64,000 nt of DNA, from NCBI GenBank assembly GCA_043813585.1, contig JBDRKW010000020.1, positions 129,185 to 193,184 on the forward strand, in the 5' to 3' direction. Made by a program: the position numbers and the translations under genes. Each line of letters opens with the position of its first letter. Position 1 is the first letter of the stretch. Source of the stretch: Candidatus Kerfeldbacteria bacterium. Its GTDB lineage: Bacteria; Patescibacteriota; Patescibacteriia; UBA9570; XYC2-FULL-38-9. Below the pieces are notes generated by a model. The model had not been told where the DNA came from and did no database searches. It saw nothing but the letters and a program-made list of their open reading frames with translations. Below, piece by piece: positions 20,358 to 58,564 of the stretch.

Positions 20358-21788
20358 ATGTCATTTTTTAGGATTTTACCGCTCATACTTCTAACTGCGC
20401 TTATTTTCATTGCGCCATATCCTGCGCATGCATTTAGTTTTGATAAAAACACGCTGATTACCAACTATCAGATGACGAATGACAGTTATCTGACTGCCGG
20501 TGGCATTGAAGCATTTCTGAGGGAAAAAGGATCCGTACTCGCTGGCTATATGACGACAAGCCGAACCGGGAAAACGAAATTGGTTTCTGAAATTATTAAA
20601 AATGCTTCCCGTAAGTATGACTTGAACCCGATGATGTTCCTCGTTATGGCGCAAAAAGAATCAAGCGCCATTACCAGAGGGACAATGAGTTATGCAATCG
20701 AAAACTGGCTGCTCGGGTACGGCCGCTGCGACAGCTGTTCTGAATCTGTTGCCGCCCCATACCGCGGAATAACAAATCAAATTCATTCTGCTGCAGCACA
20801 GTTTAGGGAAAGCTACTTATCCGATCTGGAAAGCAAAGGCCATACCATTTCCGGATGGGGCCCGGGGCTGACGAAAACGACGATCGACGGCATCAGCGTC
20901 ACGCCGACAAATGATGCGACAGCTGCGCTGTATACGTACAACCCATGCGTAGGCGCATACGGAGGCGGAGACAGCCGGTTTGGCTGCAATTCGGCGTTTC
21001 AGAAGCTCTGGCAGGAGTGGAATCCGAATTTTGTCTCCTATTATCCAAACGGCAGCCTATTGCAGGTCAACGGTACCGTCTACCTGATTCAGGACGGTAA
21101 AAAAAGGCCGTTCACATCAATAAGCGCGCTCGTTTCCAACTATGATTTCGGTGACATCATTCAGGTTCCTTTGTTTGTTGGCGAACAATATCCTGACGGC
21201 GTAGCAATTCAATTCCCAAACTATTCATTATTGCGCAGCCCGGAAGGAACCGTATTTCTGTATGTTGACGGCTATAAGCGCGGCATCACATCGTCTGAAG
21301 TATTTAGAAGCATAGGATTCAATCCGGAAGAAATAGTAGATGTGAACGCTGCTGATATCGACAAGATACCAAATGGGCAACTAATCACTTCAAATTCAAC
21401 GCGGCCTACCGGGGCGTTAGTGCAAAACTCACAGACCGGGGCGATAACATGGGTTGATCCAAACGGAAAGAGGCACGATGTCTGGGACAAGGCAATTCTT
21501 GATAACAACTTCCCTTCTCAAACTCCTGCGCCTCTCAGTCCGGAAGAGCTTAATGAGTATAAGCAAGGCCAACCATTGAAGCTTAAAGATGGAACAATTG
21601 TCACTTCGCCTAATTCCAACTCTGTTTACGTCATTGCCAACGGACGGAAGAGGCCGTTCAAATCAAAAAAGGCGTTTGATGGTCTCGGTTACCAGGCAGG
21701 AAATATTATAATGGTTCCGGATACCGCTCTTGATCTGCACTCACAGGGCAAATTCGTACGCCTAAAAACGTCAAAGAAGAAAAAATAA
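20358..21788 (+). CDS. Secreted protein with unknown N-terminal domain and four tandem repeats of about 55 aa
   Basis: Signal peptide (MSFFRILPLILLTALIFIAPYPAHA). C-terminal repeats share G-x-[VI]-[YF]-x-I/V-x-x-G-x-K-R-x-F (GTVYLIQDGKKRPF, GTVFLYVDGYKRGI, GAITWVDPNGKRHDV, SVYVIANGRKRPF). Confidence 0.5.
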   Translation: MSFFRILPLILLTALIFIAPYPAHAFSFDKNTLITNYQMTNDSYLTAGGIEAFLREKGSVLAGYMTTSRTGKTKLVSEIIKNASRKYDLNPMMFLVMAQKESSAITRGTMSYAIENWLLGYGRCDSCSESVAAPYRGITNQIHSAAAQFRESYLSDLESKGHTISGWGPGLTKTTIDGISVTPTNDATAALYTYNPCVGAYGGGDSRFGCNSAFQKLWQEWNPNFVSYYPNGSLLQVNGTVYLIQDGKKRPFTSISALVSNYDFGDIIQVPLFVGEQYPDGVAIQFPNYSLLRSPEGTVFLYVDGYKRGITSSEVFRSIGFNPEEIVDVNAADIDKIPNGQLITSNSTRPTGALVQNSQTGAITWVDPNGKRHDVWDKAILDNNFPSQTPAPLSPEELNEYKQGQPLKLKDGTIVTSPNSNSVYVIANGRKRPFKSKKAFDGLGYQAGNIIMVPDTALDLHSQGKFVRLKTSKKKK

Positions 21789-21797
21789 TATACACGT

Positions 21798-22586
21798 ATG
21801 CCACTAATTTTTTCAGCGGTCGTCCCAAATCATCCGGAAATTGCTAAAGAGCTGGCAATGCCGGGCAATGTTGAACTTTCACCGACTGCCCAGTCAATCA
21901 AGGAGCTTGAAGGCGAGCTATATTTCATGAAGCCGGATACGATCGTCATCCTCACTTCGCACGGCTCCATAGTTCCTGATCTGATCAATATGAACATTTC
22001 GGGAACAGTGGCTCCGAAATGGCCGGAAGGCATGACTGATATGCCCTCAGATGCCACGTATACCTGTGATGTGGAGTTCATGGCAAGTATCAAGGGTAAA
22101 ATTGACACAAAAGACTTGGAAGTGCCGCTAACTATTATCGCAGAACCGTCGGTTGTGCCGGAAGTTGCAGGTCCTTTAAGTTATTTGATGTCCCATCTGG
22201 AAAGCACGAAGGTCGTTGTCATGTCGACAGCTGACTTTTCATTACAAGAGCACTACCTATTCGGCGAATTTTTGGCAGATCAAATTATGCAAACAAACAA
22301 ACGGGTAGCCGTGTTCGCGACTGGACACCTGTCCTCTGACTCTGCAAAGGCCGAACATGAGAAGAAAACATTTGATTCAATGTGTCTTGAGTGCTTGAAA
22401 GAAAATCGGCGCGAAGAGATACTCCGCCTCAACAATGGGATTCTTAAAGAGACGGACGCGGATATAGTTATTCCTTTGTCAGTAATGCTCGGCATCATAG
22501 CTAAGGTAAATATCTCTCCGGAAGTGCTTTCGTACGAACAAACATACGGATTCGGTCAATTAGTGGCAAACTTCGTTATTAAATAG
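21798..22586 (+). CDS. LigB/MEMO-like (class III extradiol dioxygenase fold) protein
   Basis: Pattern AVVPNHP...IVILTSHGS...VAVFATGHLS resembles the MEMO1/LigB fold signatures. Low confidence. Confidence 0.4.
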   Translation: MPLIFSAVVPNHPEIAKELAMPGNVELSPTAQSIKELEGELYFMKPDTIVILTSHGSIVPDLINMNISGTVAPKWPEGMTDMPSDATYTCDVEFMASIKGKIDTKDLEVPLTIIAEPSVVPEVAGPLSYLMSHLESTKVVVMSTADFSLQEHYLFGEFLADQIMQTNKRVAVFATGHLSSDSAKAEHEKKTFDSMCLECLKENRREEILRLNNGILKETDADIVIPLSVMLGIIAKVNISPEVLSYEQTYGFGQLVANFVIK

Positions 22587-22587
22587 C

Positions 22588-24210
22588 ATGATCGCATCAG
22601 TCGTGCCATATGTCCGTACGCTGCGGGGTAAGGACACATTTGACTATGAAATTCCTGACGAACTGGAGGTGCATCCGGGGTTTCTTGTCTGGATTGAATT
22701 TCGCTCCAAGACAGTCTTTGGAGTTGTAGTTGGGATAACACGCACGTCCACGTTTAAAAAAATAAAACCGATACTTGATATCGTCGATGCGGATCTATGG
22801 CTTCCGAACTACCGCCGGGAGCTGCTTGCCTGGTTTTCTTCATACTATTATGTTTCCCTGCCGCTGGCTTTAAAAACAGTACAATTTCAATTGTTAAAGC
22901 GTCCTCGAAAAGAAACAATAGAAATTAACGCTGCGGCGTCACGAAAAAAATCCAATAAAGTCCTCATTCAGGATGGTTCCGATACGCTGCTTCTCGGCAA
23001 TAATAGGACATCGCTCATAGAAGCATACGCGGGTATTCATGAAAACAGCATCGGTCATACGCTTATCGTCGTCCCTGAGTATTTAGACTGCGTCGAAATG
23101 AAACCAGCGCTTGTGGGGACAAATCATATTATTATCGACAGCGACCCCTCGCCTTCTCAATTACATGAATTGTATGAATTACTGCAGCAAAAAAAAGATT
23201 TGGTCGTTGTAGGCACGAAAAAATTGGCTTTCTTGCCGCTTCATCTTTTTACGACAATTATTCTAGATCAGGAAGAAGCCCGTTCCCATAAGCAGTATGA
23301 TCAAAATCCGCGGTATCATATCCGCGATGTTCTCCTGCAGACACGGGCGTTGATGAAAAAAAATTCGTTGCAACCGTTCACGCTTGTTCGGTCCAGTCAA
23401 TCGCCGTCAATTCATACGCTGCTGGATGTAAAAAACAAAAAATGCATTCTCAATGATATACGCAATCAATGGAGCGGCGCGCACATCCAAACCGTTGATA
23501 TGGAAAAGGAATACGAGAATAAGAACTATTCATGGTTTTCCGAAGATCTGCTGGATATGATTCGCAACTCGAAAAATATATTCCTCTTTCTCAACAGGAC
23601 CGGAAGCTATTCCAATGCAATCTGCCTGAAATGCTCCGCCCTATTAAATAATGTCCAACAAACATGCCCTTCATGCAATAGCAAAAACATTCGTCTTTCC
23701 GGCAAAGGCACTGCTCAGCTGGAGAAAGAAATCAATGAACTTTTTCCAGACCGTTCTGTTTTGCGCCTTGATAATGACCGGGACGGTAACGAATTAACGC
23801 CGCAACAGATTAAAAACAGCGATATCATCATAGGAACAGAGAAAGTATTTCGTGCGCTACAGATGAAATCGCTCGATGGCATCGGCATTCTTTCTGTGGA
23901 CCATCTTCTCATCTATCCGCATTTTCAATCAAGCGAACGCGTATTTCAACTGCTCAGCCGCCTGTTTCAGTACAACATTCCGACCATCCTTCAGACGCAT
24001 TCCCCTAACAACCCTGTTATTCGTGCTGCTATCGAAAATGCTGTAGATCGGTTTGCCGATTATGAGCTTGCTACGAGGGAAATGCTCAAACTGCCTCCGT
24101 ATGAGGAACTATTTACTATCCGAAATATACAAACAAAATCAGTCCGGATAGTTACCGGTCCCCTATCCGCTGACAAGCTGGATCAACGCGACATTGTCGA
24201 TCGCCAGTAG
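22588..24210 (+). CDS. priA: PriA-like primosomal protein with degenerate helicase motifs
   Basis: PriA N-terminal 3-prime DNA-binding domain profile (YEIPDELEVHPGFLVWIEFRSKTVFGVVVG), a Cys-rich zinc segment (CLKCS...CPSC) and priA-def-fmt synteny. The Walker A position reads GNNRTS (not GSGKTE) and DEEH reads DQEE. 540 aa, shorter than typical PriA. Confidence 0.65.
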   Translation: MIASVVPYVRTLRGKDTFDYEIPDELEVHPGFLVWIEFRSKTVFGVVVGITRTSTFKKIKPILDIVDADLWLPNYRRELLAWFSSYYYVSLPLALKTVQFQLLKRPRKETIEINAAASRKKSNKVLIQDGSDTLLLGNNRTSLIEAYAGIHENSIGHTLIVVPEYLDCVEMKPALVGTNHIIIDSDPSPSQLHELYELLQQKKDLVVVGTKKLAFLPLHLFTTIILDQEEARSHKQYDQNPRYHIRDVLLQTRALMKKNSLQPFTLVRSSQSPSIHTLLDVKNKKCILNDIRNQWSGAHIQTVDMEKEYENKNYSWFSEDLLDMIRNSKNIFLFLNRTGSYSNAICLKCSALLNNVQQTCPSCNSKNIRLSGKGTAQLEKEINELFPDRSVLRLDNDRDGNELTPQQIKNSDIIIGTEKVFRALQMKSLDGIGILSVDHLLIYPHFQSSERVFQLLSRLFQYNIPTILQTHSPNNPVIRAAIENAVDRFADYELATREMLKLPPYEELFTIRNIQTKSVRIVTGPLSADKLDQRDIVDRQ

Positions 24211-24254
24211 GATTGACAAAAGCCTGTTTTGATGCTATTTCATACACTAAGACT

Positions 24255-24752
24255 ATGCAATATCGAATTCACACAGTAGATAAAGATCCCGAAGTCCGCG
24301 AGAAATCACAGGACGTCCGGGAATCAGAAATAACGTCGGGCGAATTGACGCCGTTTTTCGACGCGCTTATATCCGCCATGCTGGAAGCGGACGGGATTGG
24401 AATCGCCTCACCCCAGGTCGGCGTAACAAAACGCATTATTGTTGTGTCAAAAGAATATACATCGTCAGAAGATCACCTGATACTCGTTAATCCGCGCATT
24501 GCGTCAACCGGCAGTAGAGTAAGCACGGTTGAGGAGGGCTGTCTTTCTGTTCCCGGCAAAAATGGTCTTGTTGAGCGTCCGGTAAAAGCAAGAATTAAGG
24601 CACTCGGCCGTACGGGTAAACCTGTTGATATCAAAGCAAAAGGAATGTTTGCAAGGATTCTCCAGCACGAAATCGACCATTTGGACGGAATTTTATTTAT
24701 CGACCGGGCTTCGTCTGTTTACGAAGCAACCCAAACTGGCAATTTCGTATAG
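24255..24752 (+). CDS. def: Peptide deformylase
   Basis: GIGIASPQVG, EGCLSVPG and QHEIDHLDG motifs. Start chosen at MQYRIHTV. Confidence 0.85.
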   Translation: MQYRIHTVDKDPEVREKSQDVRESEITSGELTPFFDALISAMLEADGIGIASPQVGVTKRIIVVSKEYTSSEDHLILVNPRIASTGSRVSTVEEGCLSVPGKNGLVERPVKARIKALGRTGKPVDIKAKGMFARILQHEIDHLDGILFIDRASSVYEATQTGNFV

Positions 24753-24754
24753 CA

Positions 24755-25627
24755 ATGAAGATACTTTTCTTTGGTACGCCGGATTTTGCAGTACCAACCC
24801 TGGAACAATGCGCGTCATCATTTGATGTTGTCTATTGCGTCACGCAACCGGACAAACCGGTAGGACGATCGCAAGTAATTACGCCGCCGCCTGTGAAGAC
24901 CAAGGCAATTGAACTTGGCATTCCTGTCGCACAGCCGGATTTGATAAAGAAAAACTCGGAAGGGCGCCAAGAACTTGAAGAGATCATAAAAAAATATAGC
25001 CCGGATGTGGCGGTTGTGGTTGCGTATGGAAAAATTATTCCGTCCGGACTGCTTACAATGCCAAAGCACGGTTTCGTGAATGTGCATGGATCACTGCTTC
25101 CCATGCTACGTGGCGCTTCCCCCATACAGGCGGCTATTGCACAGGGATTCCAAGAAAGCGGCGTTACGATAATGGTTATGGACAAAGGGATGGATACCGG
25201 CCCAATCTTGTCATCGAAACGTATTCTGCTGGACGCAACTGAAACGTCGGGCTCTCTGCATGATCGCCTGATGAATATTGGCGCCGACTTGCTGGTAGAA
25301 ACTCTGCCAAGATATATTACAGGCGATATAACGCCGGTACCTCAAGACAATAAACGCGCTACGTACTGTTCACTCATTACGAAAAATGACGGAGAAATTG
25401 ACTGGAACGCAACACCCAAAGAAATCGATCAGCATATTCGGGCGTTCAGTTCATGGCCTGGCGCCTTTACATTTTGCAACAATAGACGGATAAAAATTAC
25501 AGCAGCTCATCTTGACGGGGAAGGCAAACTTTCGATCACGAGGGTTAAACCCGAAGGTAAGAAAGAAATGCCCTTTGAGGCATTCATTCTCGGAAATCCT
25601 GATTGTCAACTACCGCCACTGCAGTAG
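24755..25627 (+). CDS. fmt: Methionyl-tRNA formyltransferase
   Basis: MKILFFGTPDFAVPTLE, HGSLLP and the SLHDRL region; position after def. Confidence 0.85.
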   Translation: MKILFFGTPDFAVPTLEQCASSFDVVYCVTQPDKPVGRSQVITPPPVKTKAIELGIPVAQPDLIKKNSEGRQELEEIIKKYSPDVAVVVAYGKIIPSGLLTMPKHGFVNVHGSLLPMLRGASPIQAAIAQGFQESGVTIMVMDKGMDTGPILSSKRILLDATETSGSLHDRLMNIGADLLVETLPRYITGDITPVPQDNKRATYCSLITKNDGEIDWNATPKEIDQHIRAFSSWPGAFTFCNNRRIKITAAHLDGEGKLSITRVKPEGKKEMPFEAFILGNPDCQLPPLQ

Positions 25628-35732: not shown

Positions 35733-38700
35733 ATGTCATTCATCCATTTACACGTCCATAGCCATTATTCCCTGTTAGACGGGGTCCCAAAGATCCCTGA
35801 ATTGATACATGCAGTAAAAAAAGCAGGTATGCCTGCTGTTGCTCTTACGGACCATGGGAACATGTACGGCGCTATTGAATTCTTCCAGGAAGCGAAAAAA
35901 AACGGCATTAAACCAATTATTGGAATGGAGGTCTATATTGCTCCAAACGGCGTGAAAGAGATGCAGCCGCGCGTTCGGCCTTACCATCTTGTTCTTCTGG
36001 CAAAAAATAGAACCGGCTACGAAAACTTGATTCAACTGACCTCGTATGCCCATCTTGAAGGCTATTATTCCAAACCGCGCGTCGACATCGATATTTTGCG
36101 GCAGCACGCTGACGGGCTTATTGCGCTTACCGCATGTTTGTCGGGGGAAGTACCAAAAACATTTTTAACCGGCGGATATGACAAGGCAAAGGAGGCAGCA
36201 CTTAAATACTCTCAGATTTTTCCTGAAAACCTTTATCTGGAAGTGCAGTACAACCCTTCGATGCCTGAGCAGGAACTCGTTAATCAGGCAATGCTTCAAA
36301 TGCATCAGGAACTGGGACTCCCACTTGTCGCGACAAACGACGTCCACTATATCGCTCCGGAAGACAACGAAGCACAGGACGTGTTGTTATGTATTCAGAC
36401 AAAAAAACTGCTGACAGATACAGAGCGCCTTACTATGATGAACGAAGATTATTCCCTCACTCCTGCATCACGAATGCAGGAACTGTTTGCAAAGTTCCCG
36501 GGCGCCATTGAGAATACTCTCAAAATTGCAGATGAAATCAATATTGAGATACAGCTCGGAAAAATACAAATTCCTCATTTTGATCTTCCAGAAAATGTAA
36601 CGCCTGAGCAGCGTCTTCGCGATCTGTGTAACGAAGGAATACAAAACAAATATAAAGAACGCACAACTGAAATATCAGAACGCCTTGATTATGAATTGGA
36701 TATTATCGAACGAACAGGTTTTGCCTCGTACTTCTTGATTGTTCAGGACTTCATTAACTGGGCAAAAAAACAAAAAATCGCAGTCGGGCCGGGCCGCGGT
36801 TCTGCTGCAGGTTCCATTGTGGCCTATCTGACGAACATTACGGACATTGATCCGATAAAATATGAACTGCTATTTGAGCGGTTCCTAAATCCGGAACGCA
36901 TATCCATGCCTGATATTGATACGGATTTTGCAGATGCCCGCCGCGATGACGTTCTGCGGTATGTTGAACAGCGCTACGGCAAGGACCATGTTGCGCAGAT
37001 CATTACGTTTGGAACGCTTGGGGCTAAAGCAGCGGTTCGCGACGTCGGACGCGTAATGGGCCTGTCATACGGCTATTGCGATAGAATTTCAAAATTAATC
37101 CCAATGTTCATGACGCTCCAGGAAGCGTTGGAATCGGTTTCAGAGCTCTCTGACCTGATAAATGAAGATGCAGATGCCGAACGTCTGATACAAATCGCCC
37201 AAAAGCTGGAAGGCGTCGCCCGCCATACATCCACACACGCGTGTGCTGTCGTCATTACAAAAGAACCTCTTACAAAAACCGTTCCTCTTCAGGTGGATCC
37301 GGACGACAAGGGAATTATCACCCAATATCCCATGAACCCAATTGAAGCTCTGGGTTTGCTGAAAATGGACTTTCTGGGCCTAAAAAACCTTACTATTATT
37401 GAAGATACATTGAATATTGTCGATGCAACAACTGGCAGATCGTTGAATATTGAAGAGATACCCTTAAATAACAAGCCAACATTCAAATTATTGCAGCAAG
37501 CCAATACCATCGGAGTTTTCCAACTTGAAAGTTCCGGCATGCGGAGGTATCTCAAACAACTCAAGCCGACAGAAATGGAAGATATAATCGCAATGGTCTC
37601 GCTCTATCGGCCTGGTCCGATGGACTTCATCCCAGACTATATTTCCGGCAAACATGGAAAAAGAACAATCACCTATTTGGAAAAACGGCTACAACCGATA
37701 CTTGAAAAGACATACGGCATTGCCGTGTACCAGGAACAAATTATGGAGATAGCGCGCCAACTTGCTGGCTTCAGTTATGGCGAAGCGGACGTGCTCCGAA
37801 AAGCGGTTGGTAAGAAAAACAAGGCGCTTCTCGACAAGCAGGAACAAAAAATGATTCAAGGCATGGTTGATAGCGGAATCAGCCACGATATCGCAAAGAG
37901 AATTTGGGAATTCATATTGCCCTTTGCCCGATACGGTTTTAACCGGTCGCACGCTGCCTGTTATGCCATGATCGCCTATCGCACCGCATTCCTGAAGGCC
38001 AACTATCCTGCACAATTCATGGCCGCTCTCCTAAATGCAGATCATGGAAACACGGAACGGGTTGCGCTTGAAATCAACCATGCGCTTTCCATGGGAATTA
38101 AGGTCCTTCCACCGGATATCAATGAAAGCTTTGCATCGTTCACTGTGGTTCGCGCATCCCTGGAGGAGGAAACGCAGCGCATCCGCTTCGGTCTGAAAGC
38201 GATTAAAAATGTCGGCGACAATATTGTTACCGTGATTATTAAAGAACGCAAAGAAAATGGTCCATTCGCGACCTTGGAAGACTTCCTGCGCCGCGTACAG
38301 GACAAGGACCTCAATAAAAAATCGTTAGAGAGCCTTATAAAAACCGGAGCGCTGGACAGCCTTGGAGAAAGAAACAAACTTCTTCTGAATATTGAAGTTC
38401 TTCTGCAATATGCCAAGCAGGCGCAGAATGAATCAATTAGCGGACAAGGTAATCTCTTTGGCGGCCTTAAGAAGGAATCACAGCCAGGCCTGACATTATC
38501 CGAAGTTCCCGAGATTTCTGAAAAGATCCGACTCTCCTGGGAAAAGGAATTACTCGGGCTCTATATCTCCGGGCACCCGCTGAGCCACATTTCACACGTG
38601 TTGGAAAAAAACTCCATCCCTTTTTCCACGCTAAAAAACTTTCCAAAGCGCCAAACAATATCTGTCATAGGGATAGTTACAACAGTAAAGCGGGTAACGA

Positions 38701-39134
38701 CAAAAAATGGGGAAGCGATGCTCTTTGTTGGTTTTGCCGATAATACGGCAGAAATCGAAATTATTATTTTCCCCAAAACCTACCAGAAATATTCCACTTT
38801 CTGGGATGAAGATGCAGTGTTGGAAGTGAAGGGAAAGCTTGACGACAAGGACGGAGCCCTAAAAATACTTGTTGAGGAGGTTAAGCGATTTGATCCGGAT
38901 AATGTATCTCCTGCTCCCCATGTCCGCATCTCGGTTCCCAAAAAAATAAAAAAATCATTGTTTAAGCAATTTTCTGAATTAATCAAGGAGGAGTCCCAAA
39001 GCGAACAAGCACTGTACGCCGTCTATCTTATCGTCGACGGAAAAACAATCGATACAAATGCCAAAATCCCTAAGAAAACTATTAAAGAAATCGAACAGCT
39101 GTTTGGACAACAGGCCGTCTCTGTGGTAGAATAA
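35733..39134 (+). CDS. dnaE: DNA polymerase III alpha subunit
   Basis: PHP domain start MSFIHLHVHSHYSLLDGV; 1133 aa; polymerase core and OB fold. Confidence 0.9.
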   Translation: MSFIHLHVHSHYSLLDGVPKIPELIHAVKKAGMPAVALTDHGNMYGAIEFFQEAKKNGIKPIIGMEVYIAPNGVKEMQPRVRPYHLVLLAKNRTGYENLIQLTSYAHLEGYYSKPRVDIDILRQHADGLIALTACLSGEVPKTFLTGGYDKAKEAALKYSQIFPENLYLEVQYNPSMPEQELVNQAMLQMHQELGLPLVATNDVHYIAPEDNEAQDVLLCIQTKKLLTDTERLTMMNEDYSLTPASRMQELFAKFPGAIENTLKIADEINIEIQLGKIQIPHFDLPENVTPEQRLRDLCNEGIQNKYKERTTEISERLDYELDIIERTGFASYFLIVQDFINWAKKQKIAVGPGRGSAAGSIVAYLTNITDIDPIKYELLFERFLNPERISMPDIDTDFADARRDDVLRYVEQRYGKDHVAQIITFGTLGAKAAVRDVGRVMGLSYGYCDRISKLIPMFMTLQEALESVSELSDLINEDADAERLIQIAQKLEGVARHTSTHACAVVITKEPLTKTVPLQVDPDDKGIITQYPMNPIEALGLLKMDFLGLKNLTIIEDTLNIVDATTGRSLNIEEIPLNNKPTFKLLQQANTIGVFQLESSGMRRYLKQLKPTEMEDIIAMVSLYRPGPMDFIPDYISGKHGKRTITYLEKRLQPILEKTYGIAVYQEQIMEIARQLAGFSYGEADVLRKAVGKKNKALLDKQEQKMIQGMVDSGISHDIAKRIWEFILPFARYGFNRSHAACYAMIAYRTAFLKANYPAQFMAALLNADHGNTERVALEINHALSMGIKVLPPDINESFASFTVVRASLEEETQRIRFGLKAIKNVGDNIVTVIIKERKENGPFATLEDFLRRVQDKDLNKKSLESLIKTGALDSLGERNKLLLNIEVLLQYAKQAQNESISGQGNLFGGLKKESQPGLTLSEVPEISEKIRLSWEKELLGLYISGHPLSHISHVLEKNSIPFSTLKNFPKRQTISVIGIVTTVKRVTTKNGEAMLFVGFADNTAEIEIIIFPKTYQKYSTFWDEDAVLEVKGKLDDKDGALKILVEEVKRFDPDNVSPAPHVRISVPKKIKKSLFKQFSELIKEESQSEQALYAVYLIVDGKTIDTNAKIPKKTIKEIEQLFGQQAVSVVE

Positions 39135-46677: not shown

Positions 46678-47505
46678 CTAAAATTCGTGTTTAATGCCTT
46701 GCTTATCCCTATGATACTTGCCGAACTCAATAATGCGTAGCGCTTTTGCTCCGGAGATCACAGGCCCTTTCTGGCACGTCGGGAAACCGTCGTCGTCCAC
46801 GCAGCAATTTCCGCAAATCCCGAATCCGCATTTCATGTAGCGCTCAAGCGAAATTTGCGTAGCGACCCCGTAAGTTTTGCCAAGCTCAGCGACTTTCTTC
46901 TGCATCAATTCAGGGCCGCATGCGCATACGACCACATCCTTCCGTTTCCGGTCGCTCATGTCATTAAGTATTTTATCGAGAATATCCGTTGCGAAACCTT
47001 TCACGCCCCGCGAACCGTCATCTGTTGCCGCATGCACTTTTGCGCCCGCTTTTTTCGCGCGCTTTTCGAAAAGCAGATGTTCCCTGCTTCGCGCGCCCAC
47101 GATAAAATCAATCTTGCATTTTTCTTCGGCAGCACGATCTGCTAAAAACGCGAGTGGCGCCGCGCCATATCCTCCGCCAACCGTTATAACATGCTGTTTC
47201 GGTTTCCATGCATAATCCGTGCCGTACGGACCGCTGATTCCAACTTTATCCCCTTTCTTCAGCTTGAACAGCGTCTGGGTCGCTTTACCAAGTTCAAATA
47301 TTGAAAGCTGGAATGAATCCCCCTCGTCTCCGCCGATGGAAAACGGTTTTTGATCGACGCCAGGAATCCACAGCATCACAAACTGCCCCGGCTTGGACTT
47401 TAGCTCATAATCAAAATAGAACGTACGCACTTTTGCCGTCTCCTGGACGATCTCCGCAATAGGAACCATCACCGGCGTATCGGCTCTGTCAGGATTACTC
47501 TTCAT
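46678..47505 (-). CDS. pyrK: Dihydroorotate dehydrogenase electron-transfer subunit
   Basis: FAD/NAD-binding ferredoxin-reductase fold plus a C-terminal [2Fe-2S] Cys cluster (CGFGICGNCC...C). Confidence 0.85.
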   Translation of the reverse strand: MKSNPDRADTPVMVPIAEIVQETAKVRTFYFDYELKSKPGQFVMLWIPGVDQKPFSIGGDEGDSFQLSIFELGKATQTLFKLKKGDKVGISGPYGTDYAWKPKQHVITVGGGYGAAPLAFLADRAAEEKCKIDFIVGARSREHLLFEKRAKKAGAKVHAATDDGSRGVKGFATDILDKILNDMSDRKRKDVVVCACGPELMQKKVAELGKTYGVATQISLERYMKCGFGICGNCCVDDDGFPTCQKGPVISGAKALRIIEFGKYHRDKQGIKHEF

Positions 47506-48421
47506 GCGCCATGCCGATTAGTTCTTTAACTTCTGAAATTCCTTCTTTCCCCATCCGTTCCTGCATCTCTTTTGCGATCAGAGACATCGTCTTCTCGCCC
47601 CGGTAATAAAATGCCGTTCCGACTCCTACCAACGTTGCGCCAGACATCATCATCTGGATAGCATCGTCGCCGGTCGTCACACCACCAGTCCCGATAATCG
47701 GGATAGATACTGCTTCATATATATCCCACACTGCTTTCAGCGCTATAGGTTTCAGTGCCGGACCGGATAATCCTCCGCTCTTATTTGCAAGAACAGGGCG
47801 CCGCGCTTCAATGCTGATCTCCATTCCCAAAGCCGTGTTCACAGCCGTAATCGCATCCGCGCCGGCAGCCTCCGCAATTTTTGCAAGCTCGCCTATCTGC
47901 CATGTATTTGGCGATAGTTTTACGGAAACGGGTACATTTGAATTCTTCTTTACCAGCTTGGTAATTTTCTCTATTGATTCCGGGTCATGCGAAAACGGAC
48001 GGTCATACAGATGGCTTGCGTGCGGACATGAAATATCGATCTCCAGTAAATCTATCGGCGCCTCACGAATCTGTCTGGCTGCCTCGCCAAACTCCTCCCA
48101 TGTCCGCCCATAGATTGATCCGATGAGGACACCGGAGCATAATTCTTGAAATTTACTCAGCTCAGGAAGAGACGCCTCGATTCCCGGCCCCGGCAACCCG
48201 ACGGCGTTTAAGAAATATTCATCCTGGCCCAGCATAGTCGGATTAGGATTTCCTTCTATTGCCTCAACAGTGACCGATTTCATCGTTACACCGCCTGCGC
48301 CATTTTTAACGACGCGCGCCAGTGATGCGCCCGTTACGCCCAGAATACCCGACGCTAAAACAAGCGGATTTTCAAATTTCGAGCCTAGCGCTTCTATTCC
48401 TAACGAGGTTTGTTTATTCAT
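47495..48421 (-). CDS. pyrD: Dihydroorotate dehydrogenase (class 1B) catalytic subunit
   Basis: NPLVLASGILG, the catalytic Cys region CPHAS and TIM-barrel DHOD motifs. Confidence 0.85.
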   Translation of the reverse strand: MNKQTSLGIEALGSKFENPLVLASGILGVTGASLARVVKNGAGGVTMKSVTVEAIEGNPNPTMLGQDEYFLNAVGLPGPGIEASLPELSKFQELCSGVLIGSIYGRTWEEFGEAARQIREAPIDLLEIDISCPHASHLYDRPFSHDPESIEKITKLVKKNSNVPVSVKLSPNTWQIGELAKIAEAAGADAITAVNTALGMEISIEARRPVLANKSGGLSGPALKPIALKAVWDIYEAVSIPIIGTGGVTTGDDAIQMMMSGATLVGVGTAFYYRGEKTMSLIAKEMQERMGKEGISEVKELIGMAHEE

Positions 48422-48473
48422 GCTGTTTTGCCCAATATGGGCTTAGTATACCAGACTTTGCCCCTATAATCGA

Positions 48474-49418
48474 TTAATCGTTTCGGTGACGGTCCAACCA
48501 TACAAGCAAACCGTTTTGCCCGTGCATCCTATTTTCCGCCTGGTCCAATATAACGGCATTGCTGTGATCCATTGCATCCCTTGAGATTTCATAACCGATG
48601 TGGCACGGCATGCAGTGCATAATTTTTGCCTGAGGAGCATAGGTATCGATTGTTTCTGCATTCAGCTGGAACGGCTTGAACATTTCCATTCGCATATTAT
48701 ACTCTTCTTTGAACTCTTCCTTCACCTGTCCGTTCTCGAAAAATTCCATATCCACCCACGTATCGGTATGCACAAAGTCCGCGCCGGTCAATCCTTCCTT
48801 CAGATTTGTCGTGTAGGTCACCAAGCCGGTATCGTTTGCCATTTTATTCAACTCTTCATCAACGCTGATCTCGTGCACTTTGGGTGCAATAATGGCAATT
48901 TCAATCCCGAGCTTTGTTGCCGCAAGCTTCAACGTGTTCGAAACATTATTCTCAATGCCTAACCACGCAATCTTCTTAATATTTTCCAATCCGCCAGCTT
49001 TCTCAATCATGGTAAGAAAATCACTCAGTGCCTGGCACGGATGGTATTTTTCACTGCACCCGTCTATGACGGGAATCCTGTTAAACGATGCTGCCACTTC
49101 CACATCCTCCGCGCGCATCGCGCGCATCATCAGAATATCGCCAAACCGCATCACAGCCTGGATCTCATCCTTATAATCAGTCAGTGAAAATTGCGACGTT
49201 TTTTGGTCAAGGAATATCCCATGCCCACCGAGCCTGGTCATACCCGCCTCAAATGATAACCTCGTTCGCGTGGACCCTTTCTGAAACAGTATGATAGTTG
49301 TCTTCTGCTTCAATGCGTCCTGGTACGTTTCAGGGTTCGCCTTGATATCCGACGCAAGTTCAAGAATCTCCTTAAGTTCATCGGCAGAAACGTCTTTGAG
49401 ATGGATAAAATGTCTCAT
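48474..49418 (-). CDS. Ornithine-carbamoyltransferase-family transcarbamylase with non-canonical substrate loop
   Basis: STRTR, HPCQ and HCMP (OTCase-type rather than the ATCase HPLP) and IENNVSNTL (OTCase DxNNVxNS-like). The ornithine-binding SMG loop reads HTDTWVDMEF. Confidence 0.7.
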   Translation of the reverse strand: MRHFIHLKDVSADELKEILELASDIKANPETYQDALKQKTTIILFQKGSTRTRLSFEAGMTRLGGHGIFLDQKTSQFSLTDYKDEIQAVMRFGDILMMRAMRAEDVEVAASFNRIPVIDGCSEKYHPCQALSDFLTMIEKAGGLENIKKIAWLGIENNVSNTLKLAATKLGIEIAIIAPKVHEISVDEELNKMANDTGLVTYTTNLKEGLTGADFVHTDTWVDMEFFENGQVKEEFKEEYNMRMEMFKPFQLNAETIDTYAPQAKIMHCMPCHIGYEISRDAMDHSNAVILDQAENRMHGQNGLLVWLDRHRND

Positions 49419-49427
49419 ATGCGTATA

Positions 49428-50612
49428 TTAAACTGCTTTGTTATCAATTATTGTAAATAACGGCCAGCCCTGGAGCTCCATCCCCTCGTACGGCGTCCAT
49501 CCGCATTTTGTTTTCAGCCGCTCTTTTGACACGGTCTGCTTCTTCGCCATATCAACGACTGTTCCGCACTGACCTAACGACGGCAGGTTGAATATGGCTA
49601 TCGGCTTGGTATGCATTGCATCGATTAATCGGTCTAAACCGATTTTCCCCTCGTTCACCGCATTCAGCATTAAAGATAAAACAGTATCAATCTCCGGTAT
49701 GCCTGCAGGCGCTGTTTCGTAACCACTCTCCTTCTCCGCCGGTAAATGCGGCGCATGGTCAGTGCTGATCACATCGATTGTTCCGTCCCGTAATCCCGCC
49801 CATAGCGCTTCATTATCCTCTGCAGTTCGCAGCGGCGGATTCACCTTCACATAATCACCCCACTGTTCATAGTGTAATTCATTCAGGAACAAATGATGTG
49901 GCGTCACTTCCGCAAATACGGGCAGTCCGTCATTTTTTGCTTCACGTATCAGATCAACCTCTTCTTTTGTAGAGATATGCGCAATAACTGTCGGCTTATT
50001 AAACTCGCGCACCAATTCAAGCACCATCTTTACAGCGCTTACTGCAACAGCGCGATCTCGAACGCGAGAATGCTTATCACTACCGGAATAATCCGCAAGC
50101 TTCTCGGCATTTTCACTGATCATCACGTCATCTTCAGCATGAACAACAATGACCTTATCCCATTGTTCGTATATTCTGCGTAGCTCATTCTCAGAATCAA
50201 CAAGCAGATCACCGGTTGAAGAACCGACATATATTTTCAGCCCGACCACATCATCGGCAATTCCATTATCCGGTACCACAGTGCCGGATGCGCCTAAATT
50301 GAAAAACGCATGCAAGCCATACTTCTTTTGGCTATGTACTAGAGACTTTTTTTGCTTATAGGTGGCAGCATCAACCATGGCCGGCGTATTATTCGGCATG
50401 TCGATGACCGCGCATATTCCTCCAAACACAGCGGCCTCCGACCCTGTGACCCAGTCTTCTTTCTGCTCTGCACCGGGCACTCGAAAATGAACATGACAAT
50501 CAACAAGGGCTGGCAATAAAACCAACCTCCGCGCTGTTACCTTTTGCTTCACATCCTCCCAATCGCCGTCATCCAGCCATTGCTGCAATTCTTCCTTTGA
50601 TAATTCGGCCAT
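49428..50612 (-). CDS. pyrC: Dihydroorotase
   Basis: DCHVHFRVPG metal-binding motif, amidohydrolase fold, 394 aa. Confidence 0.8.
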   Translation of the reverse strand: MAELSKEELQQWLDDGDWEDVKQKVTARRLVLLPALVDCHVHFRVPGAEQKEDWVTGSEAAVFGGICAVIDMPNNTPAMVDAATYKQKKSLVHSQKKYGLHAFFNLGASGTVVPDNGIADDVVGLKIYVGSSTGDLLVDSENELRRIYEQWDKVIVVHAEDDVMISENAEKLADYSGSDKHSRVRDRAVAVSAVKMVLELVREFNKPTVIAHISTKEEVDLIREAKNDGLPVFAEVTPHHLFLNELHYEQWGDYVKVNPPLRTAEDNEALWAGLRDGTIDVISTDHAPHLPAEKESGYETAPAGIPEIDTVLSLMLNAVNEGKIGLDRLIDAMHTKPIAIFNLPSLGQCGTVVDMAKKQTVSKERLKTKCGWTPYEGMELQGWPLFTIIDNKAV

Positions 50613-51058
50613 TACTTGATCTCGTCAGGACTAAACAGCTTTTCGCAATAATGGCACTTCACCTGCATCTCATTATTTTTAAACAAGGGGTAAAATTTAG
50701 GCTGTTCTGGATCCATATTCGTTATGCATTTCGGATTCGGGCACTTGCCGATATTCTCAAACACTTCCGGCAATTCAGCCGTATATTTCTTTACGATCTT
50801 GAAATCGCGAATGATATTGATCGTGGCTTCCGGCGCAATGAGAGCAACTTGGTTGACGTCCTCCGGTGTTAACTCTTTATCCTCGATCTTAATCAGATCT
50901 TTCTTCGCCCGCTTCTTTGATTTGAAATTCGCGCCCATGGTTACAAAATTGCCGCTCTCAATCAGCTTTAACATACGTATCAGACGTATTGCCTGGCCGG
51001 CCGGGATATGATCAATAACCGTTCCGTTCTTGATTGTAAATACTTTAAATGCTCGCAT
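50612..51058 (-). CDS. pyrI: Aspartate carbamoyltransferase regulatory subunit
   Basis: MRAFKVFTIKNGTVIDHIPAGQAIRLIRML, C-terminal zinc domain CPNPKC...CHYC. Confidence 0.85.
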   Translation of the reverse strand: MRAFKVFTIKNGTVIDHIPAGQAIRLIRMLKLIESGNFVTMGANFKSKKRAKKDLIKIEDKELTPEDVNQVALIAPEATINIIRDFKIVKKYTAELPEVFENIGKCPNPKCITNMDPEQPKFYPLFKNNEMQVKCHYCEKLFSPDEIK

Positions 51059-51063
51059 AGTGG

Positions 51064-51981
51064 TTATTTTACTTTGCCTAATACTAATGAAAGAACCGCC
51101 TGACGGGCAAAGAGACCGTTCTCAGCCTGTTGAAAATAGTATGCGTATTTCGTATTATCGACAGCCGGATCAATTTCATTGACGCGCGGCAGCGGATGCA
51201 TCACTTTCATATTCGGCTTTACTTTCTCCAGCATGTCCGTTGATAAAACATAAACATTTTTTACGCGTTCATATTCTAACGGATCCGGGAATCGTTCTTT
51301 CTGAATGCGCGTCATATAGATGATATCAACCTTATTGATGACGCTTTCAATTTTGTCATGAAGGCTAAATTTAATGTTGCGCTCCTTCAGATACTGCTGG
51401 ATATGCATTGGCATCTGGAGTGCATCCGGTGCAACAAAATAGAGCCGCGCATCGTAATGCGCCAGCGCCTGCGCCAGCGAATGCGTCGTGCGTCCGAATT
51501 TCAAATCGCCTACCAACGCGATTGAGAGGCCTGTCAGTTTTTTCTGCGACTCTTTAATGCTAAATAAATCCAACAGCGTTTGCGTCGGATGCTGATTTGC
51601 CCCATCTCCGCCGTTAATAACCGGTTTGTCGGTCGCTTCCGCAGCCAGCCGTGCCGAACCTTCAGCCGGGTGCCGCATGGCAATCACGTCTGCATACAAC
51701 CCAATATTCTTGATAGAATCATGCAGTGATTCACCTTTTGCAGTTGATGAAACGCCTGCTTCGGCAAAACCGATAATGCTCATACCTAACCGTTCCGCAG
51801 CCGTTTCAAACGACAAACGCGTTCGTGTCGACGGTTCGTAGAACAGGCTTGCCATCACATAGTCCTTTAAGAGTGACGGCTTTGGAGCCTTTTTCATTTT
51901 TTCCGCTACCTGCAGGATATGGTTAATTTCCTGTTTCGTCAGGTCCGTAATGGAAATGATGTCTCTTCCCTTGAAATTCAT
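51064..51981 (-). CDS. pyrB: Aspartate carbamoyltransferase catalytic subunit
   Basis: STRTR, HPTQ-region, VGDLKFGRTTHSL and HPLPR motifs. Confidence 0.9.
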   Translation of the reverse strand: MNFKGRDIISITDLTKQEINHILQVAEKMKKAPKPSLLKDYVMASLFYEPSTRTRLSFETAAERLGMSIIGFAEAGVSSTAKGESLHDSIKNIGLYADVIAMRHPAEGSARLAAEATDKPVINGGDGANQHPTQTLLDLFSIKESQKKLTGLSIALVGDLKFGRTTHSLAQALAHYDARLYFVAPDALQMPMHIQQYLKERNIKFSLHDKIESVINKVDIIYMTRIQKERFPDPLEYERVKNVYVLSTDMLEKVKPNMKVMHPLPRVNEIDPAVDNTKYAYYFQQAENGLFARQAVLSLVLGKVK

Positions 51982-52054
51982 ACTATTACAATGTGTTAAT
52001 AATCGAATGGTCCGCGTCTATTGTACAATTTCTAACGCTGATGCACAACATATT

Positions 52055-58141: not shown

Positions 58142-58564
58142 TTATAAACCGGTACTTCCAAAACCGCCTTCGCCGCGATCTGTCGCATCCAGCGCGTCAA
58201 CGAGTTCAACGGACGGCGAAACGACGGGTTGAATAAGAATTTGGGCAATCTTCTGATGCTTTTCAATGACAACCGGCTCCTGTCCCAGGTTATTGAGGAC
58301 AATCTTCACTTCCCCCCTATACCCCTCATCAATAACTCCTGCCATGGTCTTTAATCCTTCTTTCACGGCGCGTCCGCTTTTATCCCACACCAATGCCACA
58401 TGGCCGGTAGGAATCTGCATGGCAATACCTGTCGGGACTGCGTGACGCTGACCGGGCTGTAAGGTGACTTCTTCGAGTGCGAAAATATCCATGCCCGCAT
58501 CGCCTTGGTGAGCATATTCAGGAATCTTGGCGTTTTCATGCAGCTTCTGAACCTTTACCGTCAT
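58142..58564 (-). CDS. dut: dUTP diphosphatase
   Basis: Five dUTPase motifs (GDAGMDI, GLKTMAGVIDEGYRGE, GGFGSTG). Confidence 0.85.
   Translation of the reverse strand: MTVKVQKLHENAKIPEYAHQGDAGMDIFALEEVTLQPGQRHAVPTGIAMQIPTGHVALVWDKSGRAVKEGLKTMAGVIDEGYRGEVKIVLNNLGQEPVVIEKHQKIAQILIQPVVSPSVELVDALDATDRGEGGFGSTGL

What the first reader, a model, noticed from the sequence alone, without database searches (positions are those of the whole stretch)
22588..24210. PriA orthologue by synteny, but with degenerate Walker A and DEEH motifs and shortened length
The gene order priA-def-fmt and the PriA N-terminal DNA-binding domain and Zn-finger are preserved. The motif I position reads GNNRTS (catalytic Lys replaced by Arg), motif II reads DQEE, and the protein is 540 aa instead of about 730. 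This looks like a helicase-dead PriA that may retain fork recognition and primosome recruitment, or a decaying gene.
Basis: partly seen in the sequence, partly recalled or inferred. Interest (0 to 1): 0.6.

Follow-up and report, generated by a model that had tools for sequence, protein, structure and literature searches.

The report
Miniature, ATPase-dead PriA replication-restart protein
This gene is the true counterpart of the bacterial replication-restart helicase PriA, but in this candidate-phyla-radiation (CPR) lineage it has lost every ATP-site residue and three sub-domains while keeping its DNA-fork-recognition parts, so it most likely works as a motorless scaffold and not as a helicase.

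Summary
The ORF at 22588-24210 (540 aa) is real and is the vertical priA orthologue. It sits in a gltX–wecG–X–ligB-like–priA–def–fmt–GT2 block that is conserved across Patescibacteria, including lineages with a canonical PriA.

It is not decaying and not an artefact. At least 60 database clusters (50% identity) share the same 500-570 aa architecture. AlphaFold gives pLDDT 88, and the best structural matches are PriA (TM about 0.7).

Two independent alignments place E. coli K230 opposite Leu143, not Arg140. The P-loop is therefore erased, not K→R. DEEH is DQEE, and motif VI (QxxGRxGR) is deleted. The winged-helix domain, the inner zinc site and most of the C-terminal domain are missing.

The residues that survive are the 3'-end pocket (F18-D19-Y20), the aromatic-rich loop (KQYDQNPRY, letter-identical to canonical CPR PriAs), the outer CxxC…CxxC pair and motif IV.

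A rough tree suggests one loss of the ATPase in a large CPR sub-radiation (Kerfeld-, Falkow-, Kuenen-, Uhr- and Buchananbacteria), followed by further miniaturisation in the Kerfeldbacteria-like clade.

The known precedent is the Deinococcus PriA pseudohelicase. This is a new and more extreme variant. Its function as a fork-binding, DnaB-recruiting scaffold is inferred, not shown.

The parts
22588..24210 (+). priA orthologue, 540 aa, 'mini' pseudohelicase form
   Evidence: ORF. NCBIfam PriA equivalogs hit at E 6e-67 to 2e-52 but below their cut-offs. PDB PriA chains hit at E 1e-30. Foldseek TMq 0.70-0.73 to 8fak_H, 6dcr_A and 4nl4.
22588..22887 (+). 3'-DNA-binding domain (3'BD), residues about 1-100. 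Pocket residues F18-D19-Y20 correspond to E. coli F16-D17-Y18.
   Evidence: PF17764 E 8.6e-18. F18, D19 and Y20 are invariant in the clade. The Y18 column is kept in 95% of mini-clade members. The role of D17 and Y18 in 3'-end binding comes from PMC5778457.
22888..22980 (+). Short linker (about 30 aa) where canonical PriA has the winged-helix domain (E. coli residues 109-181)
   Evidence: Alignment gap. The region between the 3'BD and lobe 1 is 21 aa, against 96 in E. coli.
22996..23019 (+). Erased motif I (Walker A): G137-N-N-R-T-S-L143-I144, opposite E. coli G224-V-T-G-S-G-K230-T231
   Evidence: Translation. Register from MAFFT and hhalign. The K230 column in the clade holds C, K, L, I, V or R. 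The G229 column holds D or E.
23266..23277 (+). Degenerate motif II: D227-Q-E-E230, opposite E. coli D320-E-E-H323
   Evidence: The column aligned with E. coli E321 is Gln in 35 of 65 mini-clade members.
23290..23316 (+). Retained aromatic-rich loop (motif IIa): K235-Q-Y-D-Q-N-P-R-Y243, corresponding to E. coli K328-Y335
   Evidence: K235, Q236, N240, P241, R242 and Y243 are invariant in the clade. The string KQYDQNPRY is identical in canonical CPR PriAs. The loop crosslinks to the fork junction in E. coli (PMC5175346).
23593..23604 (+). Retained motif IV (N336-R337-T-G339, within LNRTG; canonical LNRRG)
   Evidence: N426, R427 and G429 equivalents are kept in 86-98% of the mini clade.
23623..23676 (+). 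Single zinc ribbon, C346-x2-C349…C360-x2-C363. These correspond to the outer Cys pairs of the PriA cysteine-rich region. The inner CxxC…CxxC pair (26 aa) is deleted.
   Evidence: Translation. All four Cys are invariant. C445, C448, C463 and C466 columns are gaps in 61-64 of 65 mini-clade members, and are Cys in 99-100% of the 8-Cys forms.
23959..23979 (+). Remnant of motif VI (RLFQYNI), where canonical PriA has QVAGRAGRxGxxG. Both arginines and both glycines are lost and 6 residues are deleted.
24100..24207 (+). C-terminal domain remnant (about 30 aa, three predicted beta-strands). The terminal IVDRQ aligns with the canonical IDVDP.
   Evidence: Alignment. The CTD is 28 aa here, against 92 in E. 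coli. DSSP strands at 508-513, 519-523 and 535-539. D726 corresponds to D538, kept in 83% of the mini clade.
21798..22586 (+). Upstream LigB/Memo-like gene. Its stop is 1 nt before the priA start. It is part of the conserved block.
   Evidence: PF02900 E 1.2e-14. Synteny.
24213..25627 (+). def and fmt, tightly packed downstream (2-nt spacers)

Best explanation
The gene is the single, vertically inherited priA of a Kerfeldbacteria-like member of the Patescibacteria (CPR). It has become a miniaturised pseudohelicase.

Proposed mechanism (step 1 has the most direct sequence support; steps 2-5 are inferred):
1. [quoted passage not shown]
2. The two RecA-like lobes survive only as a rigid DNA-binding platform. 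The invariant aromatic-rich loop (KQYDQNPRY), motif Ia (P163-E164), motif IV and the G374-T motif hold the fork junction and the lagging-strand template without ATP.
3. There is no ATP binding or hydrolysis, and so no translocation or unwinding of a nascent lagging strand.
4. The remaining single zinc ribbon and the lobe-2 surface recruit the replicative helicase DnaB, either directly (as reported for Deinococcus PriA) or through the resident loader. The surfaces that dock PriB (on the cysteine-rich region) and DnaT (on lobe 2 and the CTD) in E. coli have been trimmed.
5. Restart is therefore expected only on forks that already expose single-stranded lagging template, or after another helicase has acted.

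Evolutionary path: ATPase loss appears to have happened once, in the ancestor of a large CPR sub-radiation. The inner Zn site and the CTD core were deleted later, in the Kerfeldbacteria-like clade.
For: Orthology:
- The block gltX–wecG–(476-aa gene)–ligB-like–priA–def–fmt–GT2 recurs in 30 or more CPR loci, including Saccharibacteria and Doudnabacteria that carry a canonical PriA in the same slot.
- No second priA-like ORF is present in the window.

Real, selected protein:
- 17 full-length homologues at 34-45% identity show 57 invariant columns.
- At least 60 clusters (50% identity) of 500-570 aa appear among the top 150 hits of a search of 1.84 billion proteins.
- Against the nearest genome, PriA identity is 43%. 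That is similar to wecG (42%) and the ligB-like gene (48%), with gltX, fmt and def at 54-58%.
- AlphaFold pLDDT 87.9 and pTM 0.87.
- The top nine Foldseek PDB hits are all PriA (E 1e-21 to 1e-29, TMq 0.58-0.73; the best six reach 0.66-0.73). They include the E. coli winged-helix-deletion protein 6dcr.

ATPase-dead:
- Pfam finds no DEAD, Helicase_C, PriA_CRR or PriA_C domain.
- K230 aligns with L143 and T231 with I144. The G227 and G229 columns hold R and S. DEEH reads DQEE. Motif VI is deleted.
- Of 67 residues invariant in canonical PriAs, the mini clade keeps 30 in at least 70% of its members. It has lost S228, G229, K230, T231, E321, A357, T358, Q540, G545, Q580, G583, R584, G586 and R587. 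It keeps Y18, K328, Q329, R334, Y335, P253, E254, N426, R427, G429, the four outer Cys, G490, T539, E572, Q597, T598, R625, P631, P632 and D726.

Precedent for function without ATPase:
- E. coli priA300 (K230R) cells behave much like wild type, and the protein supports restart in vitro (PMC5778457).
- D. radiodurans PriA lacks ATPase and helicase activity but binds forks and DnaB (PMC4504706).

Stepwise origin: in a neighbour-joining tree, all 145 pseudohelicase sequences form one clade nested among canonical CPR PriAs. 60 of the 62 four-Cys forms make one sub-clade inside the eight-Cys pseudohelicases.
Against: - There is no biochemical or genetic evidence for any CPR PriA. DNA binding, DnaB recruitment and the absence of ATPase activity are all inferred from sequence.
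- A second, canonical priA elsewhere in the genome cannot be excluded from a 64-kb window. The only indication is weak: no assembly gave two loci among the 80 loci kept from a scan whose pattern does detect canonical CPR PriAs.
- The tree is neighbour-joining, has no support values and is exposed to long-branch attraction. The sequence sample was drawn with query-like patterns or profiles, so it is biased.
- dN/dS could not be computed, because all pairs are at or below 64% amino-acid identity.
- PriA is among the faster-evolving genes of the block, which is compatible with relaxed constraint.
- A second weak nucleotide site has been proposed for E. coli PriA and never located (PMC5778457). 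Some nucleotide binding therefore cannot be formally excluded.
Confidence: 0.78

Rival explanations
1. Decaying gene: priA is being lost in a reduced genome, and the ORF is a not-yet-interrupted pseudogene.
For: All ATPase motifs and three sub-domains are lost. All NCBIfam PriA equivalog scores fall below their cut-offs (for example 175 bits against a 230-bit cut-off). PriA is one of the less conserved genes of the block.
Against: - Intact ORFs with the same architecture occur in 60 or more divergent clusters and in independent MAGs.
- The losses are selective. ATP-site residues are gone, while DNA-side and structural residues are kept at 70-100%.
- 57 columns are invariant at 34-45% overall identity.
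- The fold prediction is confident.
- Operon packing is tight and conserved.
Confidence: 0.03
2. Sequencing or assembly artefact, or mis-alignment: a canonical GxGKT/DExH exists but was missed.
For: None found.
Against: - Two alignment methods agree on the register.
- No GxxGxGK[ST] motif is present anywhere in the protein. The sequence has no GK dipeptide followed by S or T at all (sequence).
- No GxGK[ST] or GRxGR motif is present at the aligned motif positions in any of the 65 mini-clade sequences.
- The same state is seen in independently assembled genomes.
Confidence: 0.01
3. Neofunctionalised paralogue-like protein: the mini-PriA no longer acts in replication restart. It might be a structure-specific DNA-binding regulator, or a factor tied to the def–fmt or cell-envelope operon. 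Restart would then be done by another protein or a second PriA.
For: - The partner-docking surfaces (cysteine-rich region, CTD) and the winged-helix domain are heavily trimmed.
- The rest of the genome cannot be inspected.
- PriA evolves faster than its neighbours.
Against: - The gene occupies the ancestral priA slot, which canonical PriA fills in other CPR.
- The residues kept are the fork-specific ones: the 3'-end pocket and the junction-contacting aromatic-rich loop.
- No assembly gave a second locus in a scan able to detect canonical CPR PriAs.
Confidence: 0.1
4. Still an NTPase that uses a non-canonical active site.
For: D227 and E229 of motif II are invariant in the 17-sequence alignment, and R140 is common in the clade (30 of 65). 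A second nucleotide site has been proposed for E. coli PriA (PMC5778457).
Against: - No P-loop glycines, no Lys/Thr pair, no motif III, no motif V Gln or Gly, and no motif VI arginine fingers.
- K230R alone abolishes the ATPase in E. coli (PMC5778457).
- The residue at the K230 column varies within the clade (C, K, L, I, V, R).
Confidence: 0.05

Closest known systems
Canonical PriA replication-restart helicase (E. coli and K. pneumoniae; PDB 4NL4, 6DGD, 8FAK; TIGR00595 / PRK05580)
   Same: - Homologous over the whole length (hhalign probability 100).
- Same order of 3'BD, two RecA-like lobes, a Zn module inserted in lobe 2, and a C-terminal strand.
- Same 3'-end pocket residues and aromatic-rich loop.
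- Predicted fold TMq 0.70-0.73.
- priA–def–fmt linkage.
   Different: - No Walker A, DExH, motif III, motif V or motif VI catalytic residues.
- No winged-helix domain.
- One zinc site instead of two.
- CTD reduced from about 92 to about 28 residues.
- 540 aa against 732 aa.
- Scores below every NCBIfam PriA equivalog cut-off.
Deinococcus radiodurans PriA pseudohelicase (Lopper et al. 2015, PMC4504706)
   Same: A natural PriA orthologue with degenerate motifs I and II. It is expected (here) or shown (there) to lack ATPase and helicase activity while keeping a restart role. The organism lacks PriB and DnaT: reported for Deinococcus, presumed but not tested for this lineage.
   Different: - In Deinococcus-Thermus the Walker A Lys is replaced by Arg in an otherwise recognisable motif. 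Here the whole P-loop is erased (K230 aligns with Leu or Cys) and motif VI is deleted.
- Three sub-domains are also trimmed here.
- Different phylum. The nesting among canonical CPR PriAs suggests an independent origin, but no Deinococcus sequence was included, so this is an inference.
- No biochemistry here.
Engineered E. coli variants: priA300 (K230R) and PriA winged-helix-deletion (PDB 6DCR)
   Same: K230R shows that primosome assembly and near-normal growth survive loss of the ATPase. The winged-helix-deletion protein is one of the best structural matches to the model (TMq 0.73).
   Different: These are single laboratory changes in an otherwise full-size PriA that works with PriB, DnaT and DnaC. 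In E. coli, helicase activity is still needed for the PriA–PriC route.
Eight-Cys CPR pseudohelicase PriAs (Buchanan-, Falkow-, Kuenen- and Uhrbacteria, Parcubacteria SG8_24; 600-690 aa).
   Same: Same loss of motifs I, II and VI. Same aromatic-rich loop. Same synteny. They are the closest natural relatives, at 24-30% identity.
   Different: They keep both zinc sites and a full CTD (median 83 aa). About half keep a vestigial Lys at the K230 column.
Actinobacterial 'smaller and very divergent' PriA (Rocha et al. 2005, PMC1193525; NCBIfam PRK14873 'primosome assembly protein PriA')
   Same: Another lineage with a shortened, divergent PriA. From my memory only, UniProt flags the mycobacterial PriA as lacking detectable helicase domains. 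That is a lead and was not tested here.
   Different: Only weak partial matches to the PRK14873 models (E 3e-17 to 0.01). Motif state and domain content of the actinobacterial proteins were not examined here.

Membership tests
PriA (replication restart protein / primosomal protein N') | N-terminal 3'-DNA-binding domain with the D17/Y18 3'-end pocket | tested here: met
   PF17764 E 8.6e-18. F18-D19-Y20 are invariant. Y18 column kept in 95% of the mini clade.
PriA (replication restart protein / primosomal protein N') | Whole-length homology and fold of the PriA helicase core (two RecA-like lobes with an inserted Zn module) | tested here: met
   phmmer against PDB PriA chains, E 1e-30. hhalign against a canonical PriA profile: probability 100, E 4e-88, 513 columns. 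Foldseek TMq 0.70-0.73.
PriA (replication restart protein / primosomal protein N') | Walker A GxxGxGK[ST] (K230) | tested here: not met
   GNNRTSLI. K230 aligns with L143.
PriA (replication restart protein / primosomal protein N') | Motif II DE(E/A)H | tested here: not met
   DQEE. The catalytic-Glu column is Gln in 35 of 65 clade members.
PriA (replication restart protein / primosomal protein N') | Motif VI QxxGRxGR arginine fingers | tested here: not met
   Replaced by RLFQY plus a 6-residue deletion.
PriA (replication restart protein / primosomal protein N') | Cysteine-rich region with eight Cys binding two Zn | tested here: not met
   Only the outer four Cys are present (C346, C349, C360, C363). 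The inner four are deleted. Zn stoichiometry was not measured.
PriA (replication restart protein / primosomal protein N') | Winged-helix domain and S10-like C-terminal domain | tested here: not met
   WH region 21 aa against 96 in E. coli. CTD 28 aa against 92. The WH domain is also short or absent in canonical CPR PriAs (median 30 aa), so it is not universal.
PriA (replication restart protein / primosomal protein N') | Curated equivalog score (TIGR00595 cut-off 230 bits; PRK05580 models 763-1249 bits) | tested here: not met
   175.3 bits for TIGR00595. Best PRK05580 model 226.6 bits against a cut-off of 813.
PriA (replication restart protein / primosomal protein N') | Orthologous genomic position (priA–def–fmt) | tested here: met
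   Same block in 30 or more CPR loci, including those with canonical PriA.
PriA (replication restart protein / primosomal protein N') | Promotes DnaB reloading at forks and D-loops | not testable with these tools
   Needs biochemistry or genetics.
PriA pseudohelicase (Deinococcus-Thermus type) | Clear PriA descent with loss of catalytic residues in motifs I and II | tested here: met
PriA pseudohelicase (Deinococcus-Thermus type) | Walker A Lys replaced by Arg within a recognisable GxGRT-like motif | tested here: not met
   The K230 column is Leu here and C, K, L, I, V or R in the clade. The P-loop glycines are gone.
PriA pseudohelicase (Deinococcus-Thermus type) | No ATPase or helicase activity, but ssDNA, fork and DnaB binding | not testable with these tools
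   Shown for D. radiodurans. Only inferred here.

The most novel reading that the evidence does not exclude
A large CPR/Patescibacteria sub-radiation (Kerfeld-, Falkow-, Kuenen-, Uhr-, Buchananbacteria and relatives) converted PriA once into an ATP-independent fork-recognition scaffold. The Kerfeldbacteria-like clade then pared it down to what may be the smallest natural PriA: a 3'BD, two dead RecA lobes with an intact aromatic-rich loop, and one zinc ribbon. If so, this defines the minimal module sufficient for replication restart. It would also show that the aromatic-rich loop has an ATPase-independent role at the fork junction.
Probability: 0.55. Interest if true: 0.65.

Novelty: new variant of a known kind. 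Interest (0 to 1): 0.5.

Why it matters
[quoted passage not shown] Here the motor is absent in a second, much larger and independent set of lineages, and in a far more radical form.

The pattern of what is kept and what is lost is a natural deletion experiment:
- It argues that 3'-end capture, the junction-contacting aromatic-rich loop, one zinc ribbon and the lobe scaffold are the indispensable core of PriA.
- It argues that ATP hydrolysis, the winged helix, the second zinc site and the PriB/DnaT docking surfaces are accessory.

The 540-aa protein is a compact target for structural work and for DnaB-loading assays. It is also relevant to how ultra-small CPR genomes maintain replication.

On the practical side, these proteins fall below the curated PriA thresholds, and at least some are annotated 'hypothetical protein' (for example P0008).

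Tried and rejected
- **dN/dS.** Abandoned. The closest pair among the loci with DNA is 64% amino-acid identical, and the window's best relative is 43-45% identical, so synonymous sites are saturated.
- **Second priA copy.** phmmer with E. coli, Bacilli-type and Buchananbacteria PriAs against all six-frame ORFs of the window found only this gene. The rest of the genome is not available.
- **Taxonomic markers.** The window has no tRNA or Rfam hit. The source genome is not among the GTDB representatives (best PriA match 43%).
- **Structure library.** afdb50 was unavailable.
- **Cluster look-up.** A look-up of 10 representatives gave almost no taxon names.
- **Regex motif calling.** Too strict: it mislabelled 43 canonical proteins as 'mixed'. 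Replaced by alignment-based calling. An off-by-one in my E. coli numbering was corrected.
- **Literature.** Searches for PriA with Patescibacteria or candidate phyla radiation found nothing on this topic. The one relevant-looking hit concerns a different phylum, UBP6.
- **Rejected: a shifted register that would place R140 under K230.** Both flanks (LL.G upstream, E-x-Y downstream) anchor an ungapped alignment, and hhalign agrees.
Full report
**1. What is at the coordinates**

An uninterrupted ATG-to-stop ORF of 540 codons lies at 22588..24210 on the + strand. It starts 1 nt after the stop of a LigB/Memo-like gene (21798-22586). It is followed at 2-nt spacings by peptide deformylase (24213-24752) and methionyl-tRNA formyltransferase (24755-25627).

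Pfam recognises only the PriA 3'-DNA-binding domain (PF17764, E 8.6e-18, residues 15-98). It finds none of the DEAD, Helicase_C, PriA_CRR or PriA_C domains that canonical PriAs show. NCBIfam PriA equivalogs match at E 6e-67 to 1e-30 but far below their trusted cut-offs, for example 175 bits against 230 for TIGR00595. phmmer against the PDB finds only PriA chains (E about 1e-30).

**2. Motif register**

Both a MAFFT alignment with E. coli PriA and a graded series of homologues and an independent profile-profile alignment (hhalign, probability 100, E 4e-88, 513 aligned columns) give the same ungapped register.

| Element | E. coli | Query |
|---|---|---|
| Motif I | G224-V-T-G227-S-G229-K230-T231 | G137-N-N-R140-T-S-L143-I144 |
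| Motif II | D320-E-E-H323 | D227-Q-E-E230 |
| Motif III | SAT | SQS |
| Motif V | GTQ…KG | GTE…RA |
| Motif VI | QVAGRAGR | RLFQY plus a 6-residue gap |

The catalytic lysine therefore faces Leu143. The window coordinates of these strings were verified by translation.

The roughly 190 missing residues are:
- the winged-helix domain (21 aa in the query against 96 in the equivalent E. coli stretch);
- 26 aa of the cysteine-rich region, carrying the inner CxxC…CxxC pair;
- the core of the C-terminal domain (28 aa against 92).

**3. Not an artefact and not decay**

A search of 5.8 billion clustered proteins returned 17 full-length relatives of 516-559 aa at 34-45% identity. All of them have only PF17764. 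One comes from a Candidatus Kerfeldbacteria genome, where it is labelled hypothetical protein. Their alignment has 57 invariant columns. These include F18-D19-Y20, D227, E229, K235-Q236, N240-P241-R242-Y243, N336-R337, G339, the four cysteines, and S436-D438-H439-L440-L441 (within the SVDHLL box)…E450-R451-V452.

A profile search of 1.84 billion representatives listed about 60 clusters (50% identity) of this mini form among the best 150 hits.

I took the 67 residues that are invariant in a set of 15 canonical PriAs and asked how many the mini clade keeps.
- 30 are kept in at least 70% of members.
- Lost: S228, G229, K230, T231, E321, A357, T358, Q540, G545, Q580, G583, R584, G586 and R587, among others. 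These fall in helicase motifs I, II, III, V and VI (my assignment, from general SF2 helicase knowledge).
- Kept: Y18, P253, E254, K328, Q329, R334, Y335, N426, R427, G429, the outer four Cys, G490, T539, E572, Q597, T598, R625, P631, P632 and D726.

Random decay would not sort residues by function in this way.

Against the nearest genome, PriA is 43% identical. That is like wecG (42%) and the ligB-like gene (48%), and somewhat below gltX, fmt and def (54-58%).

AlphaFold2 with the 17-sequence alignment gives pLDDT 87.9 and pTM 0.87. The nine best Foldseek matches in the PDB are all PriA (E down to 1.6e-29, TMq up to 0.73). They include the E. coli winged-helix-deletion protein 6DCR.

**4. Orthology and taxon**

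A scan of GTDB species representatives returned 80 loci. The closest are titled Candidatus Kerfeldbacteria or Patescibacteria group, at no more than 43% identity. The window's own genome is not in that collection.

In more than 30 CPR loci the same block recurs: gltX – wecG – a 476-aa gene without a Pfam match – ligB-like – priA – def – fmt – a family-2 glycosyltransferase. This includes Saccharibacteria and Doudnabacteria, whose PriA in that slot is fully canonical. The window gene is therefore the vertically inherited priA.

No second priA-like ORF exists in the 64-kb window. No assembly contributed two loci to the 80 kept from the scan, and the scan's main pattern (KQ[YF][DHE]xNPRY) does detect canonical CPR PriAs. 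This is only weak evidence against a second copy.

**5. Breadth and history**

Alignment-based motif calling on 180 sequences gave three classes.

| Class | Number | Median length | Notes |
|---|---|---|---|
| Canonical (GxGKT, DEEH, GRxGR, 8 Cys) | 31 | 666 aa | Includes Saccharibacteria, Doudnabacteria and non-CPR references |
| Pseudohelicase, 8 Cys, full CTD | 83 | 633 aa | Buchanan-, Falkow-, Kuenen-, Uhrbacteria, Parcubacteria SG8_24. About half keep a vestigial Lys at the K230 column, without any P-loop glycine |
| Mini form, 4 Cys | 65 | 541 aa | Includes the window gene |

One further 8-Cys sequence (P0184) was ambiguous.

In a neighbour-joining tree, all pseudohelicases form one clade nested among canonical CPR PriAs. 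60 of the 62 four-Cys sequences form one sub-clade inside the 8-Cys pseudohelicases. This suggests ATPase loss first and miniaturisation later.

Caveats: the tree has no support values, long-branch attraction is possible, and the sequence sample is biased towards query-like proteins.

**6. Mechanism**

What is known from the literature:
- The aromatic-rich loop K328-Y335 crosslinks at the fork junction and lagging template (PMC5175346).
- The cysteine-rich region docks PriB. Lobe 2 and the CTD dock DnaT (PMC13594977).
- K230R abolishes the ATPase, yet priA300 cells are nearly wild type. Helicase activity is needed for the PriA–PriC route (PMC5778457).
- D. radiodurans PriA lacks ATPase and helicase activity but binds ssDNA, forks and DnaB (PMC4504706).

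What I infer from this and from the retention pattern:
- The mini-PriA most likely acts as a motorless, structure-specific scaffold.
- The 3'BD captures the leading-strand end.
- The dead lobes, with the letter-perfect KQYDQNPRY loop (identical in canonical CPR PriAs), clamp the junction.
- The remaining zinc ribbon and lobe-2 surface recruit DnaB, directly or through the resident loader.
- It cannot clear a duplex lagging arm by itself.

**7. Comparison and novelty**

The kind of thing, a PriA pseudohelicase, is known from Deinococcus-Thermus. The 2018 review still lists that as the only exception to helicase conservation. Actinobacterial PriA has been called 'smaller and very divergent' (PMC1193525). 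My recollection that UniProt flags it as lacking helicase domains was not tested here.

I found no paper on PriA in CPR/Patescibacteria in the held library.

Compared with the Deinococcus case, this one differs in four ways:
- It is in a different phylum-level radiation.
- The P-loop and motif VI are erased, not point-substituted.
- Three sub-domains are trimmed.
- It probably arose independently, since the clade nests among canonical CPR PriAs. No Deinococcus sequence was in the tree, so this is an inference.

I rate it a new variant of a known kind. Interest is moderate: the result is informative for specialists and directly testable, but so far it rests on sequence inference only.

Noticed in passing
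window 59190-60653 (-): A 487-aa ORF combines an MtrA-like domain (PF04208), a thymidylate-synthase domain (PF00303) and a pterin-binding DUF4346 (PF14251). It sits directly upstream of thymidylate kinase (58561-59190). This is an unusual fusion architecture for a thymidylate synthase.
   Followed up: no
window 47495-56328 (-): A complete-looking de novo pyrimidine block is present: dihydroorotate dehydrogenase, two aspartate/ornithine carbamoyltransferase-family genes (48474-49418 and 51064-51981), an amidohydrolase, carB and carA. To my knowledge, many CPR genomes lack nucleotide biosynthesis.
   Followed up: no
window 20358-21788 (+): A 476-aa protein with a signal-peptide-like N-terminus and no significant Pfam match is conserved just upstream of the ligB-like gene and priA in most CPR loci examined (E down to 1e-186).
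   Followed up: partly
L002, L004, L008, L011, L017, L028, L034, L046, L051 (record titles): MAGs carrying the CPR-type gltX…priA–def–fmt block are titled 'uncultured Gammaproteobacteria', 'Pirellulales' or 'Bdellovibrionales'. L008 ('Pirellulales') is 64% identical in PriA to L009 (Patescibacteria). These are probably mislabelled or contaminated bins.
   Followed up: partly
window 23290-23316; L012-L054 PriA genes: The aromatic-rich-loop string KQYDQNPRY is letter-identical in the ATPase-dead window protein and in fully canonical PriAs of loci titled Saccharibacteria, Doudnabacteria and Chlorobiaceae. This hints at a role for the loop that does not depend on ATP hydrolysis.
   Followed up: partly
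window 35733-39134 (+): A full-length DnaE-type DNA polymerase III alpha subunit (PHP, alpha, finger, HhH and OB domains) lies 11.5 kb downstream of priA. No dnaB, ssb or helicase-loader gene was seen among the 30 further large ORFs scanned across the window.
   Followed up: no
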